Shown here: piece by piece, positions 50,414 to 56,627 of the stretch
Numbering within the stretch: the stretch's first letter is position 1
How the letters are laid out: every line of letters starts with the position of its first letter
Assembly (NCBI GenBank): GCA_947625295.1
Contig: CANQNU010000002.1
Coordinates: 4,057 to 68,056 of the forward strand
Origin: an uncultured Clostridia bacterium
Lineage (GTDB): Bacteria; Bacillota; Clostridia; TANB77; CAG-508
Direction: 5' to 3'
DNA: 64,000 bases
Notes under the pieces: generated by a model
What the model was told of the DNA's origin: nothing
Seen by the model: only the letters and a program-made list of their open reading frames with translations
Databases searched by the model: none
Program-made: the position numbers and the translations under genes

Positions 50414-50440
50414 ATTATTTATAAATAAAATTAAAAATTT

Positions 50441-50473
50441 AATGGCAGATAAAATTAATTTTTATCTGCCATT
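50441..50473 (+). terminator. gyrB terminator hairpin
   Basis: 13-bp stem AATGGCAGATAAA / TTTATCTGCCATT with a 7-nt loop. Confidence 0.7.
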
Positions 50474-50947
50474 AATCTATAAAGCTAATAATAATCTTAG
50501 CTAAAACTAATATACCAAGAAGTCAAACCTAATATATATTGCTATATAAATAAGCCCTCAACCTAATATATTAATCAGTTGCTCGACTATTAGTACACTC
50601 AAAATAACTGTATTCATCCTAAAAGGACTATTAACAACCACTTAAAAAATATAAGAATAATCTTAGCTCGAATATATTACCTATCATTTGACCATATATA
50701 AGAAACGAATAAAAAATATAGCCTACAAACAAATAATATATTCTTCTCGCCGACATATTATAATATATGAAAATACACTATAATATATCTTTGTCCGAAT
50801 ATAAATAAACAAATAAATATCTATTTATACTCTTGGCTCAACTATTATTAACCTTATAATTATATTATGTATAAAAATAAAAAAAATATACAAAATAAAA
50901 AAATTTCCACTTGACATATTCTGTCGAAAAAAGAAAATGAAAAATAG

Positions 50948-50976
50948 TTGACAACAAATGGAAAATATTGTAAAAT
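50948..50976 (+). promoter_or_regulatory. Sigma-A-type promoter for locus B
   Basis: TTGACA (50948-50953), a 17-nt spacer, TAAAAT (50971-50976), about 30 nt upstream of GGAGGTG. Confidence 0.6.
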
Positions 50977-51008
50977 GTTGATATAAAATTTTATTGGAGG
51001 TGAATTAA

Positions 51009-51584
51009 ATAAAAAATAAAACAGTACAAGAATGGCTGAAAGTAGATAAAATTTTTGATAATGGAATTATAAAATTAAAAAATAATAGATACATAAAAAT
51101 ATTAAAAATAATTCCGATTAATTATAATTTAAAATCAGATTTAGAAAAAGAAGCTATTTTAAATTCATATAAAATATTTTTAAAAACTTGTAATTTTGAT
51201 ATCCAAATTTTAATTCAAAGTAATAGAGTAGATTTAAATCCTCACATTTCTCAAATTGAAAAAAATATAAATAAAAAACAAAATAAATATTTAGAAGAAA
51301 TTTCAAAAAATTATATTGAATATATTAACCAAATAAATTTTTCAAAAAAAGCATCATCAAAAAATTTTTATATTATTTTATCAAATAAACCAAATAAAAA
51401 AAATAAATTTTATAATTTAGAAGAAATTATAAAAAATGATTTAAAAGAAAAATATTTTAAAGTCAAAGAATGTTTATCTCGTTGTGAAAATTTTGTCATA
51501 GAAATATCAAATAGGAAAGAAGTAGAAAATTTATTTTACTCATTTTTAAACACAAGAAGAAGTTTAAATGAAAAAAATCTTTAA
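51009..51584 (+). CDS. T4SS-associated protein (paralog of 28947..30086), apparent ATA start
   Basis: Absent from the ORF track because there is no ATG/GTG/TTG. 191 stop-free codons begin at ATA 51009, immediately after an in-frame TAA and 6 nt after GGAGGTG. Clear similarity to the locus A protein. Confidence 0.55.
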   Translation: MKNKTVQEWLKVDKIFDNGIIKLKNNRYIKILKIIPINYNLKSDLEKEAILNSYKIFLKTCNFDIQILIQSNRVDLNPHISQIEKNINKKQNKYLEEISKNYIEYINQINFSKKASSKNFYIILSNKPNKKNKFYNLEEIIKNDLKEKYFKVKECLSRCENFVIEISNRKEVENLFYSFLNTRRSLNEKNL

Positions 51585-51830
51585 ATTAACAAAGAGAAAA
51601 TGCTAGGCATATACATGATTGTACAAATTCTTAAAAAAGAAAAAAAGTGCAAAAAGAAGTTTAAATAATATTTACATAATATAGAATTTTAAGATAGAGT
51701 TTAGCAAATATAAACTGTTATAGAAAGTTTATATTTAAAAAACTTAAGATTTAAAATAAGAGTTGATAAAAAGTTATTATAAAAATTTAAAATGATAATA
51801 TAAAAAATAATATAAAAAGGAGGAAGAATA

Positions 51831-55092: not shown

Positions 55093-55109
55093 TGGAAGGA
55101 GAAATAAAA

Positions 55110-55835
55110 ATGGAAATAAATAATTTAGAAAAAAATAATAATATAGATTTAAATAATAATTTAGTGAATGAAAATGATCAAAAAAATTTTTTAGAATCAA
55201 CACTTGGAAAAACAATCAATACAGCAGTTGATATTGGAATTAGAGCATTATTACCGGATTTTGTTGAAGATCAAATTATTAGTTTAAAGGATAATCTATT
55301 TGAATATGGGTTAAAAGATGGAATAAAAAAGACAATAGATGATACTATTGATTTAGGAAAAAGTGCAATAGGAATAGTAACAGGTAATTTTGAAGATATT
55401 TCTCAAATGCAAAGTGCAATAAAAGCAGGTGGTTTAATAGATGGAATGTCCTCTCTATTAGATACAGTAATAGATAGTGTAAAAAATGCTGGATTAATAA
55501 ATAATACTATTGCAAAAACAATAAAACAAGGAAAAGATGTAATATTAAATAATATGGAAAGTAATATTGAAGAAACCTTCCAAAAACAATATGATGCAAT
55601 TGAAAATGTAAATAATTATATTGATAATTGGAAAGGATATTTTAATTCAAAAGACTTTAATAATATGCAAAAGGAATTTAAAAAAATAGAAAAACAATTA
55701 GAAAAAATTGTTCCGATTGAAAAAACAATTAATGATGCTAGAAATGTAGAATTATTACATAATTTAATTAAGAATAATGGACAAAATTTTGATTTGACAC
55801 ATGAACAATTAGAATTAATAGAGAAATTAAAATAG
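55110..55835 (+). CDS. Hypothetical protein
   Basis: 241 aa from the ATG at 55110 behind GGAAGGAG (the track ORF starts at 55092). Helical, Asn/Asp/Lys-rich, no recognised motif. Confidence 0.5.
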   Translation: MEINNLEKNNNIDLNNNLVNENDQKNFLESTLGKTINTAVDIGIRALLPDFVEDQIISLKDNLFEYGLKDGIKKTIDDTIDLGKSAIGIVTGNFEDISQMQSAIKAGGLIDGMSSLLDTVIDSVKNAGLINNTIAKTIKQGKDVILNNMESNIEETFQKQYDAIENVNNYIDNWKGYFNSKDFNNMQKEFKKIEKQLEKIVPIEKTINDARNVELLHNLIKNNGQNFDLTHEQLELIEKLK

Positions 55836-55883
55836 CTATATTGAAAAAAGTAAAAATTAATGCTACAATAAAGGAGGTAATAT

Positions 55884-56153
55884 ATGCCGATTATTTCACA
55901 ATTTTATGGAATTATAGTAACAATGTATACAAATGAAGAAAAAATAAAACATCATAAGCCACACATACATATTAAATATAATCGATATAGAGCAATTTAC
56001 GATTTTAATTGTAATATTTTAGCAGGTAAAATACCATATAAACAAAAGAAATTAGTAGAAGCGTGGATTTTAATACACAAAGAAGAGTTAATAAAATTAT
56101 GGAATGTATTACAAGAAGGTAAAGGATATTTTAAAATAAATCCGTTAGAATAG
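55884..56153 (+). CDS. DUF4160-family protein
   Basis: MPIISQFYGIIVTMY....HHKPHIHIKY pattern typical of DUF4160. AAGGAGG RBS. Confidence 0.7.
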   Translation: MPIISQFYGIIVTMYTNEEKIKHHKPHIHIKYNRYRAIYDFNCNILAGKIPYKQKKLVEAWILIHKEELIKLWNVLQEGKGYFKINPLE

Positions 56154-56166
56154 GGGGATATAAAAA

Positions 56167-56421
56167 ATGAACGATTATATAACACCGAATATCTTAAATG
56201 TTAAGGCTTTAGATGATTATTTATTAGAAATTACATTTGAAACAAAAGAAGTAAAAATATATAATATGAAAAAATTAATTCAAGAAAATAAAATCTATTG
56301 TAATTTAAAAAATTTTGAATATTTCAATAAAGTAAAGCCTAGAGGGGACACAATAGAATGGGAAAATGGAGAAGATGTGTGTCCAGAAGATTTATATTAT
56401 AATAGTAAAAAAATAAAATAA
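56167..56421 (+). CDS. DUF2442-family protein
   Basis: 84 aa. V.ALDDYLLEITF....IYNM and a W.NGEDVCPEDLY tail. Usual partner of DUF4160. Confidence 0.65.
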   Translation: MNDYITPNILNVKALDDYLLEITFETKEVKIYNMKKLIQENKIYCNLKNFEYFNKVKPRGDTIEWENGEDVCPEDLYYNSKKIK

Positions 56422-56627
56422 ACAAAAAGAAAGCCTCATTTTTTAAATGAGGTTTTATAAATTTTTTTTGTAAGTTAAAAAAAAGATATGTATAAAGCCA
56501 TAATTCTTTATCTTTCAACAGCAATAATCCCTAAACTTTTTAAACATTTCCCCCATAATTTGCTTGCAAAAAATAAATAGTTTTAGTATAATACAAATGT
56601 AGAAAAATAAAGAAAAGAGGGAATAAA

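What the first reader, a model, noticed from the sequence alone, without database searches (positions are those of the whole stretch)
50414..56627. gyrB and gyrA are separated by a ~6.2-kb accessory insertion
In Firmicutes origin regions, dnaA-dnaN-recF-gyrB-gyrA is normally contiguous. Here gyrB ends with its own hairpin terminator. About 6 kb of foreign-looking genes follow before gyrA, which has its own upstream region. The inserted genes are a VirB4 paralog with its partner, a CpaE/ParA-like ATPase, repeat arrays and DUF4160/DUF2442. No recombinase or obvious terminal repeats were seen, so how the segment got there is unclear.
Basis: partly seen in the sequence, partly recalled or inferred. 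Interest (0 to 1): 0.65.

Follow-up and report, generated by a model that had tools for sequence, protein, structure and literature searches.

The report
Ancient block between gyrB and gyrA
The 6 kb between the two gyrase genes is not a recent foreign insertion but an old, inherited part of the chromosome of an uncultured gut Clostridia lineage; it holds secretion-machine ATPase genes and an uncatalogued large structured RNA, and only a small toxin-antitoxin pair in it is truly accessory.

Summary

The reading as a foreign insertion of unclear origin does not hold for most of it:
- The same order, gyrB - RNA - split VirB4 - ParA-like - 241-aa protein - gyrA, occurs in every related species-level genome with enough flank (gyrB upstream in 60/60).
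- It also occurs in a far more distant lineage (recF 60% identical).
- Eight independent assemblies of this strain reproduce it, so it is not a misassembly.
- The VirB4-like ATPase is under strong purifying selection (dN/dS 0.06-0.13).
- It is a paralogue of a second VirB4 pair in a chromosomally fixed Gram-positive-type type IV secretion system (T4SS), whose genes lie in three blocks around the origin.

Only the ~0.7-kb DUF4160/DUF2442 (DhiT/DhiA-like) cassette is sporadic. Neighbouring slots hold other accessory genes in other species.

The "non-coding" 0.5 kb after gyrB is a ~425-nt structured RNA gene on the minus strand. It has 142 predicted pairs, 73 with compensatory changes. It matches no Rfam family. 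Homologues occur in unrelated contexts in higher-GC contigs.

The parts
50439..50475 (-). Hairpin terminator (16 bp, loop 5) followed by a T-run on the minus strand. It ends the minus-strand RNA and probably also serves convergent gyrB.
   Evidence: scores it as a minus-strand terminator. All 11 counted pairs of the hairpin (helix 13) show compensatory changes across 62 sequences (helix 13).
50476..50860 (-). Structured non-coding RNA. An 18-bp closing helix P1 (50857-50840 with 50496-50479) encloses a multi-way junction with five long arms, joined by GAGCNAA-like linkers. With the terminator the transcript would be about 425 nt.
   Evidence: - 72-91% nucleotide identity across about 60 species, with no ORF over 41 aa.
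- RNAalifold energy -122 kcal/mol on the minus strand against -22 on the plus strand.
- 142 pairs, 73 with compensatory changes; 98% of cells paired against 34-46% when the partners are slid; 0/500 shuffles reach the observed values.
- Single-sequence fold z-score -10.3.
- No Rfam match at E<=10.
- Coordinates.
50864..50893 (-). Promoter-like TTGTAT-N17/18-CATAAT for the RNA. The clade consensus is TTGAAT ... CATAAT.
   Evidence: Conserved columns 73-100 of alignment A1, mapped to the window. Inferred from sequence only.
50948..50976 (+). Promoter-like TTGACA-17-TAAAAT (11 of 12 matches), divergent from the RNA promoter. Probable promoter of the VirB4-2 operon.
   Evidence: TTGACA and the second hexamer are conserved in relatives (alignment A3).
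51009..51584 (+). TrsD/TraC-N-like ORF of 191 codons: the N-terminal domain of a VirB4-type ATPase encoded as a separate gene. In this strain a TAA at 51006-51008 cuts off the first four codons (TTG 50994 ...).
   Evidence: - Matches positions 1-147 of the CD1110-family VirB4 model and the TrsD/TraD family.
- PF26593 TraC-like in the orthologue in L005.
- 26% identical to the partner ORF of the other VirB4, window 28947-30086.
- Nonsense codon shown by alignment A3.
- dN/dS 0.16-0.40.
51828..53687 (+). VirB4-type ATPase, middle and C-terminal domains (VirB4-2). The likely start is a non-canonical ATA after the ribosome-binding site GGAGGA; the first canonical start is TTG at 52056.
   Evidence: - Pfam P-loop_TraG, AAA_10, DUF87.
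- NCBIfam CD1110-family model positions 161-729.
- PDB 4AG5 VirB4 C-terminal domain, E=2.9e-41.
- Walker A and Walker B motifs kept in 120/120 homologues.
- dN/dS 0.06-0.13.
- 26% identical to VirB4-1 at window 26963-28921.
- Start region.
53751..54851 (+). ParA/MinD-superfamily ATPase with an N-terminal extension and N/K-rich low-complexity inserts (CpaE/TadZ-like). It evolves fast.
   Evidence: - Pfam AAA_31, 41.9 bits, above the cutoff.
- Present after VirB4-2 in 71 loci, at a median of 36% identity.
- dN/dS 0.34-0.69.
- Length varies from 234 to 556 aa between species.
54848..55082 (.). A/T-rich tandem array, period 14, about 17 copies (TTAATAAAAAATAT), in the intergenic region upstream of the 241-aa gene.
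   Evidence: Comparable arrays lie upstream of the orthologue in 32 of 53 loci, but the unit and period differ (10-42 nt), so no sequence-specific site is conserved.
55110..55835 (+). 241-aa all-helical protein of an uncharacterised family (p241). It always sits last before gyrA, apart from variable cargo. An alternative ATG lies at 55092.
   Evidence: - A protein 100% identical over 241 aa is on record.
- The family has 411 clusters (at 50% identity) with E<=1e-3.
- AlphaFold2 model with a deep alignment: pLDDT 89.5.
- No Foldseek match in PDB or BFVD, best E 0.38.
- No Pfam or PDB sequence match.
- dN/dS 0.18-0.30.
55884..56456 (+). Sporadic cassette: DUF4160 (55884-56153), DUF2442 (56167-56421) and its own terminator (56430-56456). 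Compared with the nearest relatives, the indel spans about 55840-56545.
   Evidence: - Pfam PF13711 and PF10387, both above their cutoffs.
- NCBIfam toxin DhiT 70 bits, below the cutoff of 100.
- dhiTA is a DUF4160/DUF2442 type II toxin-antitoxin pair in Dickeya (PMC8198452).
- Absent in L005 and L007; present in L027, L037, L069 and partly in L033.
- Terminator.
56564..56592 (+). gyrA promoter-like TTGCAA-17-TATAAT. Its sequence is conserved with relatives that lack the cassette.
   Evidence: the last ~90 nt before the gyrA start are nearly identical in the window, L005 and L007.

Best explanation
The interval is an old, vertically inherited part of the origin region of a large clade of uncultured, very AT-rich gut Clostridia. 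It is not a recent mobile insertion. It has three layers.

1. A stand-alone structured RNA gene of about 425 nt on the minus strand, directly after gyrB.

2. An operon transcribed toward gyrA. It encodes a VirB4-type T4SS ATPase split into an N-domain gene (TrsD-like) and an ATPase gene, then a fast-evolving ParA/CpaE-like ATPase, then a 241-aa helical protein of unknown family. This is the second, paralogous ATPase module of a Gram-positive-type T4SS that is fixed in the chromosome. The other parts of that system lie at 18-33 kb (pilins, PrgI-like, TraC-like, VirB4-1, a large membrane protein, an M23/lysozyme hydrolase) and at 61.5-64 kb (VirB6-like, pilin, VirD4-like).

3. Variable slots around the 241-aa gene. 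In this genome one holds a DUF4160/DUF2442 (DhiT/DhiA-like) toxin-antitoxin cassette; in other species the slots hold other accessory genes.

Shown here: conservation, synteny, purifying selection, domain homology, RNA covariation and strand.

Inferred: VirB4-2 works as a hexameric motor or assembly ATPase of that T4SS, with the ParA-like protein positioning or recruiting it. The RNA acts independently of the T4SS genes and is merely linked to gyrB in this clade.
For: Synteny
- 80 species-level loci carry VirB4-2 at 74-95% identity.
- gyrB lies upstream in 60/60 and gyrA downstream in 35/39 loci with enough flank. The gyrB-gyrA gap is 4.4-12.3 kb and the two genes are never adjacent.
- A distant lineage (L219-L221: gyrB 85%, recF 60%, p241 29% identical) has the same order, including the RNA.
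- Eight independent same-strain assemblies reproduce the arrangement.

Selection
- dN/dS is 0.06-0.13 for VirB4-2 against 0.18-0.21 for recF.
- Walker A and B are intact in 120/120 homologues.

Family
- PDB VirB4 4AG5, E=2.9e-41.
- The two ORFs together cover the CD1110-family VirB4 model.
- Both ORFs are paralogous to the 28947-30086 / 26963-28921 pair.

T4SS context
- Searches identify the other components in the window.
- The downstream block is conserved in all loci with enough reach.
- The main cluster sits in the same place in another species, and VirB4-1 homologues are 87-100% identical.

RNA.

Cassette is sporadic. Variable slots hold XRE-HTH, AAA_15/AAA_21+DUF3696, YhcG, PDDEXK_2 and Bro-N genes in other species.
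Against: - No experiment or transcript data: expression of the RNA and of the operon is inferred from promoter-like and terminator-like motifs only.
- In this strain the N-domain ORF has a nonsense codon at codon 5 and no canonical start. The ATPase ORF also lacks a canonical start near its ribosome-binding site, so translation depends on non-canonical initiation or reinitiation.
- The ParA-like gene evolves almost neutrally against the closest relatives (dN/dS 0.64-0.69) and is split in some low-coverage assemblies.
- No relaxase was found in the window (about a dozen further window ORFs, listed under Tried and rejected, were not scanned against any family library), so the substrate of the T4SS is unknown.
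- Four loci with 10 kb of downstream flank did not reach gyrA.
- One species (L061) lacks the RNA at this site.
- A sister group with adjacent gyrB-gyrA was not identified, so when and how the block arose stays open.
Confidence: 0.82

Rival explanations
1. One reading: a recently acquired accessory island (an ICE or plasmid fragment) inserted between gyrB and gyrA in this genome.
For: - T4SS-type genes are typical cargo of conjugative elements. The closest plasmid homologue of VirB4-2 is on Vescimonas fastidiosa pMM35_02 at 36.6% identity.
- gyrB and gyrA each have their own terminator and promoter.
- The DUF4160/DUF2442 cassette really is sporadic.
Against: - The block is present in the same place in every related species examined and in a distant lineage.
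- VirB4-2 diverges in step with housekeeping genes: median identity 81%, against 77% for recF and 92% for gyrB.
- No integrase, no relaxase within the interval, no flanking repeats.
- Composition is not distinct from the rest of the window.
Confidence: 0.04
2. A decaying remnant of an ancient conjugative element: the genes are no longer functional and persist only because deleting DNA between two essential genes is risky.
For: - Nonsense codon at codon 5 of the N-domain ORF.
- Missing canonical starts.
- ParA-like dN/dS up to 0.69, and fragmentation in some assemblies.
- VirB4 is split into two ORFs in L219.
- No relaxase found.
Against: - dN/dS 0.06-0.13 for the ATPase, 0.16-0.40 for the N-domain ORF and 0.18-0.30 for p241.
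- Catalytic motifs are invariant in 120/120 homologues.
- The reading frames stay open across about 80 species.
- The split into an N-domain gene plus an ATPase gene is also the layout of the main cluster, and matches the TrsD/TraD family model.
Confidence: 0.1
3. The conserved 0.45 kb after gyrB is a DNA-level element (an origin of transfer (oriT), replication or regulatory sites) or holds a small protein gene, rather than an RNA gene.
For: - It lies next to T4SS genes and near the origin.
- A/T-rich inverted repeats are common at transfer origins (general knowledge).
Against: - The many conserved G-U pairs make the structure strand-specific: -122 kcal/mol on the minus strand against -22 on the plus strand.
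- 73 compensated pairs, and a slide control that collapses.
- A conserved promoter-like motif and a terminator bracket it.
- Homologues with the same fold occur in unrelated gene contexts in higher-GC contigs.
- No ORF over 41 aa.
Confidence: 0.03
4. An assembly artefact joining an origin contig to a mobile-element contig.
For: The window comes from metagenome-type data. Low-coverage assemblies of this strain (4-6x) show frameshift-like differences in the ParA-like gene.
Against: Both junctions are reproduced in eight independent samples of the same strain and in dozens of independent metagenome-assembled genomes from different studies and hosts.
Confidence: 0.01

Closest known systems
Gram-positive conjugative T4SS ATPases: pSK41 TrsD/TrsE, pIP501 TraD/TraE, the C. 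difficile CD1110-family VirB4, ICEBs1 ConE
   Same: - VirB4/TraC-type P-loop ATPase with a conserved C-terminal domain (PDB 4AG5, E=2.9e-41).
- The N-terminal domain is a separate small gene, as in the TrsD/TraD family.
- It is accompanied in the genome by PrgI-like, VirB6-like, VirD4-like, pilin-like and cell-wall hydrolase genes.
   Different: - It is not on a plasmid or ICE but fixed in the chromosome between gyrB and gyrA across a whole clade.
- It is a second paralogue, 26% identical to the VirB4 of the main cluster.
- It is followed by a ParA-like ATPase and an unknown 241-aa protein, not by the usual channel genes.
- No relaxase or integrase lies nearby.
- It scores below the NCBIfam equivalog cutoff (295 against 325 bits).
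Chromosomally domesticated T4SSs, such as the Helicobacter pylori ComB DNA-uptake system (from general knowledge)
   Same: T4SS genes kept as vertically inherited chromosomal genes under purifying selection, rather than as mobile cargo.
   Different: - ComB is a Gram-negative VirB-type system with a known role in transformation.
- Here the function is unknown, the architecture is Gram-positive type, and the genes are interleaved with origin-region housekeeping genes.
- This is a resemblance only; it was not tested.
TadZ/CpaE and VirC1: ParA/MinD-type ATPases that localise or recruit secretion machinery (from general knowledge)
   Same: A ParA-superfamily P-loop protein (AAA_31) with an N-terminal extension, encoded directly after a secretion ATPase.
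   Different: - The Walker A motif reads GNKKVGKT rather than the deviant KGGxGK[ST] motif.
- Only 31-65% identical within the clade, with low-complexity inserts.
- No Tad genes are adjacent, and no NCBIfam match was found.
DhiT/DhiA (DUF4160/DUF2442) type II toxin-antitoxin system of Dickeya dadantii (PMC8198452)
   Same: The same domain pair in the same order, two small adjacent genes, patchily distributed among relatives.
   Different: It scores below the NCBIfam DhiT equivalog cutoff (70 against 100 bits). Toxicity and neutralisation are untested.
Large structured bacterial RNAs of unknown function: OLE, ROOL, GOLLD, raiA
   Same: - Several hundred nucleotides long.
- Many covarying helices around a multi-way junction.
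- Found in Firmicutes.
- A stand-alone gene with its own terminator.
   Different: - No match to these or to any of the 4227 Rfam 15 families, even at E<=10, for three divergent members.
- A distinct architecture: an 18-bp closing helix and five arms joined by recurring GAGCNAA-like linkers.
- No match in the phage or plasmid collections.

Membership tests
VirB4/TraC/TrsE-type T4SS ATPase | P-loop NTPase with Walker A and Walker B motifs | tested here: met
   GTSGAGKS and IY[LF]DEIWR are present in the window protein and in 120/120 close homologues.
VirB4/TraC/TrsE-type T4SS ATPase | C-terminal domain homologous to a solved VirB4 structure, and matches to the family profiles | tested here: met
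   PDB 4AG5/4AG6, E=2.9e-41 over residues 228-614. Pfam P-loop_TraG 63.7 bits and AAA_10 50.6 bits, both above their cutoffs.
VirB4/TraC/TrsE-type T4SS ATPase | N-terminal (TraC-like) domain | tested here: met
   It is present, but as a separate upstream ORF at 51009-51584. That ORF matches CD1110-family model positions 1-147 and the TrsD/TraD family, and PF26593 in the orthologue. The two are never fused in 74 loci.
VirB4/TraC/TrsE-type T4SS ATPase | Reaches the curated equivalog score (NCBIfam CD1110 family) | tested here: not met
   295.4 bits against a cutoff of 325 for the ATPase ORF alone. The shortfall is expected for a split protein, so it is filed as VirB4-type, not as a CD1110 equivalog.
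VirB4/TraC/TrsE-type T4SS ATPase | Encoded together with other T4SS components | tested here: met
   TrbL/VirB6-like, T4SS_pilin, TraG-D_C/TrwB (VirD4-like), an M23+lysozyme+NlpC hydrolase and a second VirB4 lie in the same window. They are conserved in relatives.
Integrated mobile element (ICE or genomic island) | Integrase or recombinase at an edge | tested here: not met
   No such domain in any ORF of 50414-56627 against Pfam, PHROGs, NCBIfam or PADLOC.
Integrated mobile element (ICE or genomic island) | Flanking direct repeats or an attachment site | tested here: not met
   None of the 21 direct-repeat families links the two edges. There is no tRNA at the edges.
Integrated mobile element (ICE or genomic island) | Presence/absence polymorphism among relatives | tested here: not met
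   The core block is present in all relatives with enough flank. Only the 0.7-kb DUF4160/DUF2442 cassette is polymorphic.
ParA/MinD superfamily (CpaE/TadZ-like) | ParA-type P-loop domain | tested here: met
   AAA_31 41.9 bits (cutoff 27). CbiA and MipZ score just below their cutoffs.
ParA/MinD superfamily (CpaE/TadZ-like) | Deviant Walker A with the signature lysine (KGGxxGK[ST]), and a TadZ-type N-terminal receiver-like domain | tested here: inconclusive
   The sequence reads GNKKVGKTT, so there is no KGG motif. The N-terminal ~120 aa match no profile and no structure model was made.
DhiT/DhiA type II toxin-antitoxin | DUF4160 toxin gene followed by a DUF2442 antitoxin gene | tested here: met
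   PF13711 68.8 bits and PF10387 44.9 bits, both above their cutoffs. The genes are 13 nt apart. The domain pair is as given in PMC8198452.
DhiT/DhiA type II toxin-antitoxin | Equivalog-level similarity to DhiT; toxicity that is neutralised by the partner | tested here: not met
   NF048015 scores 70.2 bits against a cutoff of 100. Toxicity cannot be tested with these tools.
Known RNA families (Rfam 15: RNase P, tmRNA, SRP, 6S, OLE, ROOL, GOLLD, raiA, HEARO and others) | Match to a curated covariance model | tested here: not met
   No hit at gathering score in the window other than two tRNAs. Only noise-level hits at E<=10 for the window RNA and the L100 RNA, and none at E<=1 across locus L153. 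ARAGORN finds no tmRNA.
Structured non-coding RNA gene (generic criteria) | Covariation supporting a conserved secondary structure on one strand | tested here: met
   - 142 pairs, 73 compensated, 98% of cells paired, 0/500 shuffles, and collapse of the slide controls.
- Strand asymmetry of -122 against -22 kcal/mol.
- Cross-lineage test of P1 and arm 1: 17 of 32 pairs compensated.
Structured non-coding RNA gene (generic criteria) | Evidence of transcription | not testable with these tools
   Only promoter-like and terminator motifs are available.

The most novel reading that the evidence does not exclude
Two things may be new here.

1. The ~425-nt five-armed RNA may be a genuinely undescribed class of large structured bacterial RNA. 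It is present in several Clostridia lineages and, in this abundant gut clade, locked next to gyrB.

2. The surrounding T4SS genes, including a second VirB4 motor with ParA-like and p241 partners, may be a domesticated core machine wrapped around the replication origin rather than a mobile element.

A bolder version, which the data do not exclude, is that the RNA and the adjacent ATPase module work together. They share a divergent promoter region, and the RNA and the N-domain gene appear duplicated together in L079.
Probability: 0.4. Interest if true: 0.78.

Novelty: new variant of a known kind. Interest (0 to 1): 0.6.

Why it matters
- It corrects an attractive but wrong reading. A gap between gyrB and gyrA filled with conjugation-type genes looks like a fresh island, but here it is a clade-wide, selected feature.
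- It shows a Gram-positive-type T4SS, with two VirB4 paralogues, fixed around the replication origin of a widespread uncultured gut Clostridia group. This raises the testable question of what a non-mobile T4SS does there: DNA uptake or export, or contact-dependent transfer.
- It gives precise coordinates, a structure model and a 62-sequence alignment for a large, strongly covarying RNA that is absent from Rfam. Such RNAs are rare and have repeatedly led to new biology.
- It identifies the slots beside the 241-aa gene as a small hotspot for toxin-antitoxin and defence-like cargo.

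Tried and rejected
- **Alternative genetic code (TGA read as Trp):** not pursued, because gyrB, gyrA and all the ORFs read through cleanly in table 11.
- **Programmed frameshift or readthrough fusing the N-domain and ATPase ORFs:** rejected. The relative frame (0, 1 or 2) and the spacing (-37 to +1490 nt) vary between species, and the two are never one ORF.
- **The 14-nt array as a conserved centromere-like site for the ParA-like protein:** not supported. Arrays recur in 32 of 53 loci, but with unrelated units and periods.
- **PHROG 'terminase large subunit' and PADLOC 'mad8' hits:** generic P-loop similarity, not evidence for a phage or defence role.
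- **RNA as RNase P, tmRNA, SRP, 6S, OLE, ROOL, GOLLD or raiA:** no Rfam match.
- **RNA on phages or plasmids:** no blastn match. The three viral-contig hits to a 16-mer were chance. Most of the 120 metagenome hits to the degenerate 16-mer were also chance; only 10-11 are true homologues.
- **p241 structure from a shallow alignment:** unusable, pLDDT 56. With a deep alignment the model is confident, but fold searches found nothing.
- **Exact look-up of the ParA-like protein:** found nothing.
- **Taxonomy look-up of 'Clostridium sp. CAG:343':** failed for syntax reasons. The GTDB placement (I recall TANB77/CAG-508-type Clostridia) therefore rests on memory. The TANB77 pilin paper (PMC11680825) concerns a Tad pilus and does not mention T4SS.
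- **Literature searches:** nothing found for this arrangement or for a matching RNA.
- **Relaxase:** none detected in the ORFs scanned. About a dozen window ORFs were not scanned against any family library: 8660-9202 and most of those at 30.9-36.8 kb and 41.5-43.7 kb. Several of the latter can be named from their translations or from annotated orthologues.

Full report
**Observation**

gyrB (48485-50413) and gyrA (56628-59075) are confirmed by Pfam and lie 6214 nt apart.
- a hairpin at 50439-50475;
- a VirB4-like ATPase with an upstream partner ORF;
- a ParA/CpaE-like ATPase;
- a 14-nt tandem array at 54848-55082;
- a 241/247-aa ORF;
- DUF4160, DUF2442 and a terminator at 56430-56456.

No recombinase domain and no edge-linking direct repeats were found. 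GC in the interval (0.11-0.25) is low, but so is the rest of the window, so composition does not mark it as foreign.

**Conservation**

The VirB4-like protein has thousands of relatives; the best 120 are 80-95% identical. A scan of one genome per species returned 80 loci, all titled uncultured Clostridia or Clostridium sp., including Clostridium sp. CAG:343, from human, rabbit, chicken, mouse and goat samples. tblastn of the window proteins against these loci gave:
- gyrB upstream in 60 of 60 loci with at least 4.5 kb of upstream flank;
- gyrA downstream in 35 of 39 loci with at least 9 kb of downstream flank;
- a gyrB-gyrA gap of 4.4-12.3 kb (median 6.4 kb), never adjacency.

Median identity to the window:

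| Protein | Median identity |
|---|---|
| gyrB | 92% |
| gyrA | 90% |
| VirB4-2 | 81% |
| DnaB_2 | 78% |
| recF | 77% |
| p241 | 67% |
| N-domain ORF | 64% |
| ParA-like | 36% |

A lineage far outside this set (L219-L221: GC 28%, recF 60%, VirB4-2 about 61%, p241 29% identical) has the same order. It differs by an extra M14 peptidase gene. Eight assemblies from different samples of the same strain reproduce the whole arrangement, DUF4160/DUF2442 included.

**The RNA**

The 0.6 kb between gyrB and the N-domain ORF has no ORF over 41 aa, yet it is 72-91% identical at the nucleotide level over 450-580 nt in about 60 species.

Evidence that it encodes a structured RNA on the minus strand:
- A 62-sequence alignment of the minus strand gives an RNAalifold structure of 142 pairs, 73 with compensatory changes.
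- The consensus energy is -122 kcal/mol on the minus strand against -22 on the plus strand, where only the hairpin survives.
- 98% of cells are paired, against 34-46% when the partners are slid. No shuffle out of 500 reaches any of the observed measures.

Architecture: an 18-bp closing helix (50857-50840 with 50496-50479) encloses five long arms. The arms are separated by recurring GAGCNAA-like linkers. The hairpin at 50475-50439 and a T-run follow. A conserved TTGAAT-N17-CATAAT motif precedes it.

Identity and distribution:
- No Rfam family matches, even at E<=10.
- The window has one copy. L047 and L079 have a second copy, and L061 has none at this site.
- A metagenome motif scan followed by nhmmer recovered more same-clade copies, always next to gyrB or the N-domain gene.
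- It also recovered two distant homologues in contigs of higher G+C content (not measured; judged by eye at about 40-45%) with unrelated neighbours. L100 lies next to a rubrerythrin-like gene and an aminotransferase gene. L153 lies between an MFS transporter gene and a CDP-alcohol phosphatidyltransferase gene.
- L153 folds on its own into the same closing-helix-plus-five-arms shape (z = -14.3); the window RNA gives z = -10.3.
- Across these lineages, P1 and arm 1 keep 98.6% pairing, with 17 of 32 pairs compensated.
- The L100 RNA region has only noise-level Rfam hits at E<=10 and L153 has none at E<=1. The RNA has no match in phage or plasmid collections.

The RNA is therefore a stand-alone gene family wider than this clade. 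Its position after gyrB is a clade feature. The "gyrB terminator" is first of all its terminator.

**The protein genes**

*Split VirB4.* The ORF at 51009-51584 matches the first 147 positions of the CD1110-family VirB4 model and the TrsD/TraD family. The ORF at 51828-53687 matches positions 161-729 and the solved VirB4 C-terminal domain (4AG5, E=2.9e-41).
- Together they make one VirB4, but they are separate ORFs in all 74 loci. They often overlap by a few bases, and frame and spacing vary, so no frameshift fusion is involved.
- The same two-gene layout occurs at 28947-30086 / 26963-28921. Each gene there is 26% identical to its counterpart.
- On a Vescimonas plasmid the nearest homologue is a single 942-aa fusion.
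- VirB4-2 is under strong constraint: dN/dS 0.06-0.13, with Walker A and B invariant in 120/120 homologues.

*ParA-like protein.* It has an AAA_31 P-loop but evolves fast (dN/dS 0.34-0.69) and varies in length.

*p241.* It starts at 55110 (a 100% identical protein is on record). It belongs to a family of 411 clusters at 50% identity with no Pfam or PDB sequence match. A confident all-helical model (pLDDT 89.5) has no fold match in PDB or BFVD.

*Start codons.* In this strain the N-domain ORF carries a TAT-to-TAA change at codon 5. The ATPase ORF appears to start at ATA after a strong ribosome-binding site. Both are flagged as unresolved.

**Accessory parts**

DUF4160/DUF2442 is absent from the nearest relatives. 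It is present only in L027, L037, L069 and partly in L033. The indel spans about 55840-56545 and leaves the gyrA promoter intact. The pair matches the DhiT/DhiA type of toxin-antitoxin system (PMC8198452).

In other species the same slots hold:
- an XRE-type HTH gene (12 species);
- a 131-aa ORF (16 species);
- an AAA_15/AAA_21+DUF3696 ATPase;
- YhcG and PDDEXK_2 nucleases;
- a Bro-N protein.

**Context**

The window is a chromosomal origin region:
- spoIIR, rlmH and other housekeeping genes at 0-17 kb;
- mnmG and mnmE;
- parA and parB (read from the translations and annotated in the orthologous locus);
- jag, yidC, rnpA and rpmH (annotated in the near-identical relative L005);
- dnaA, dnaN and recF (annotated in relatives).

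T4SS genes sit in three blocks:
- 18-33 kb: pilins, PrgI-like, TraC-like, VirB4-1, an 826-aa membrane protein, a 1201-aa M23/lysozyme/NlpC hydrolase;
- the gyrB-gyrA block;
- 61.5-64 kb: VirB6-like, pilin, VirD4-like.

The third block is conserved in every locus with enough reach. The first block lies in the same place in another species, and VirB4-1 homologues are 87-100% identical.

**Mechanism**

Shown:
- An ancient, selected gene block.
- A bona fide VirB4-type ATPase split into two genes and paralogous to a second one.
- A structured minus-strand RNA.
- A sporadic toxin-antitoxin cassette.

Inferred:
- VirB4-2 acts as a second motor or assembly ATPase of the chromosomal T4SS. The ParA-like protein would act as a localisation or recruitment factor, by analogy with TadZ and VirC1 (general knowledge). 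p241 would be a lineage-specific partner.
- The RNA acts independently of the T4SS genes. A functional link is not excluded.

**Verdict**

The finding is more ordinary than proposed as an "insertion", but the interval contains two things worth following up: an uncatalogued large RNA and a domesticated, duplicated T4SS ATPase module.

Noticed in passing
window 50435-50893 (-); also L047 4017-4392, L079 473-895, L100 2010-2502 (-), L153 about 5328-5795 (+), L219 4488-4941 (-): A structured RNA of about 425 nt with no Rfam family.
- Second copies occur elsewhere in the origin region in two species.
- Distant homologues occur in higher-GC contigs with unrelated neighbours.
- One species (L061) lacks it at this site.
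   Followed up: yes
window 50994-51011: The N-domain (TrsD-like) ORF of VirB4-2 has a nonsense codon at codon 5: TAT in L005 and L007, TAA here and in same-strain assemblies. The remaining 191 codons stay open and constrained. This points to reinitiation at ATA 51009, readthrough, or a very recent loss.
   Followed up: partly
window 51817-52058; loci: Conserved coding homology of VirB4-2 begins about 70 codons upstream of the first ATG/GTG/TTG, right after a GGAGGA ribosome-binding site followed by ATA. The same holds in roughly half the species. This suggests non-canonical (ATA/ATT) initiation in this AT-rich clade, and it makes gene callers truncate or miss these genes.
   Followed up: partly
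window 53751-54851; L210-L212: The ParA-like gene is intact (366 aa) in some same-strain assemblies but split into 2-3 ORFs in others, at 4-6x coverage. These are either homopolymer assembly errors or phase variation.
   Followed up: no
window 59153-60158 (-): The DnaI-like helicase loader (IstB_IS21/AAA+) is encoded as two adjacent ORFs of 201 and 130 aa in this clade. In the distant lineage L219 it is a single 334-aa gene. It lies next to a DnaB_2 gene and the VirB6-like/pilin/VirD4-like block.
   Followed up: partly
window 18190-32845 (-) and 32982-33216: The main T4SS cluster (four pilin-like genes, PrgI-like, TraC-like, VirB4-1, an 826-aa membrane protein, a 1201-aa M23+lysozyme+NlpC hydrolase) abuts two tRNA-Ser genes and the chromosomal parAB genes. 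It sits in the same place in another species (L223). No relaxase or integrase was seen in the ORFs scanned.
   Followed up: partly
loci L008, L014, L027, L037, L056, L074, L083 (slots between ParA-like, p241 and gyrA, and between gyrB and the N-domain ORF): The slots around p241 act as a small integration hotspot. In different species they hold an XRE-HTH gene, an AAA_15/AAA_21+DUF3696 ATPase, YhcG and PDDEXK_2 nucleases, a Bro-N protein, a DUF3592 protein and unknown ORFs.
   Followed up: partly
window 54848-55082; 32 of 53 orthologous loci: A/T-rich tandem arrays recur upstream of the p241 gene, but with different units (periods of 10-42 nt). The array is a fast-evolving feature with no conserved motif.
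   Followed up: yes
L219 5058-5984: In the distant lineage a Peptidase_M14 gene is inserted between the RNA and the N-domain ORF, and VirB4-2 is called as two ORFs of 311 and 281 aa.
   Followed up: no
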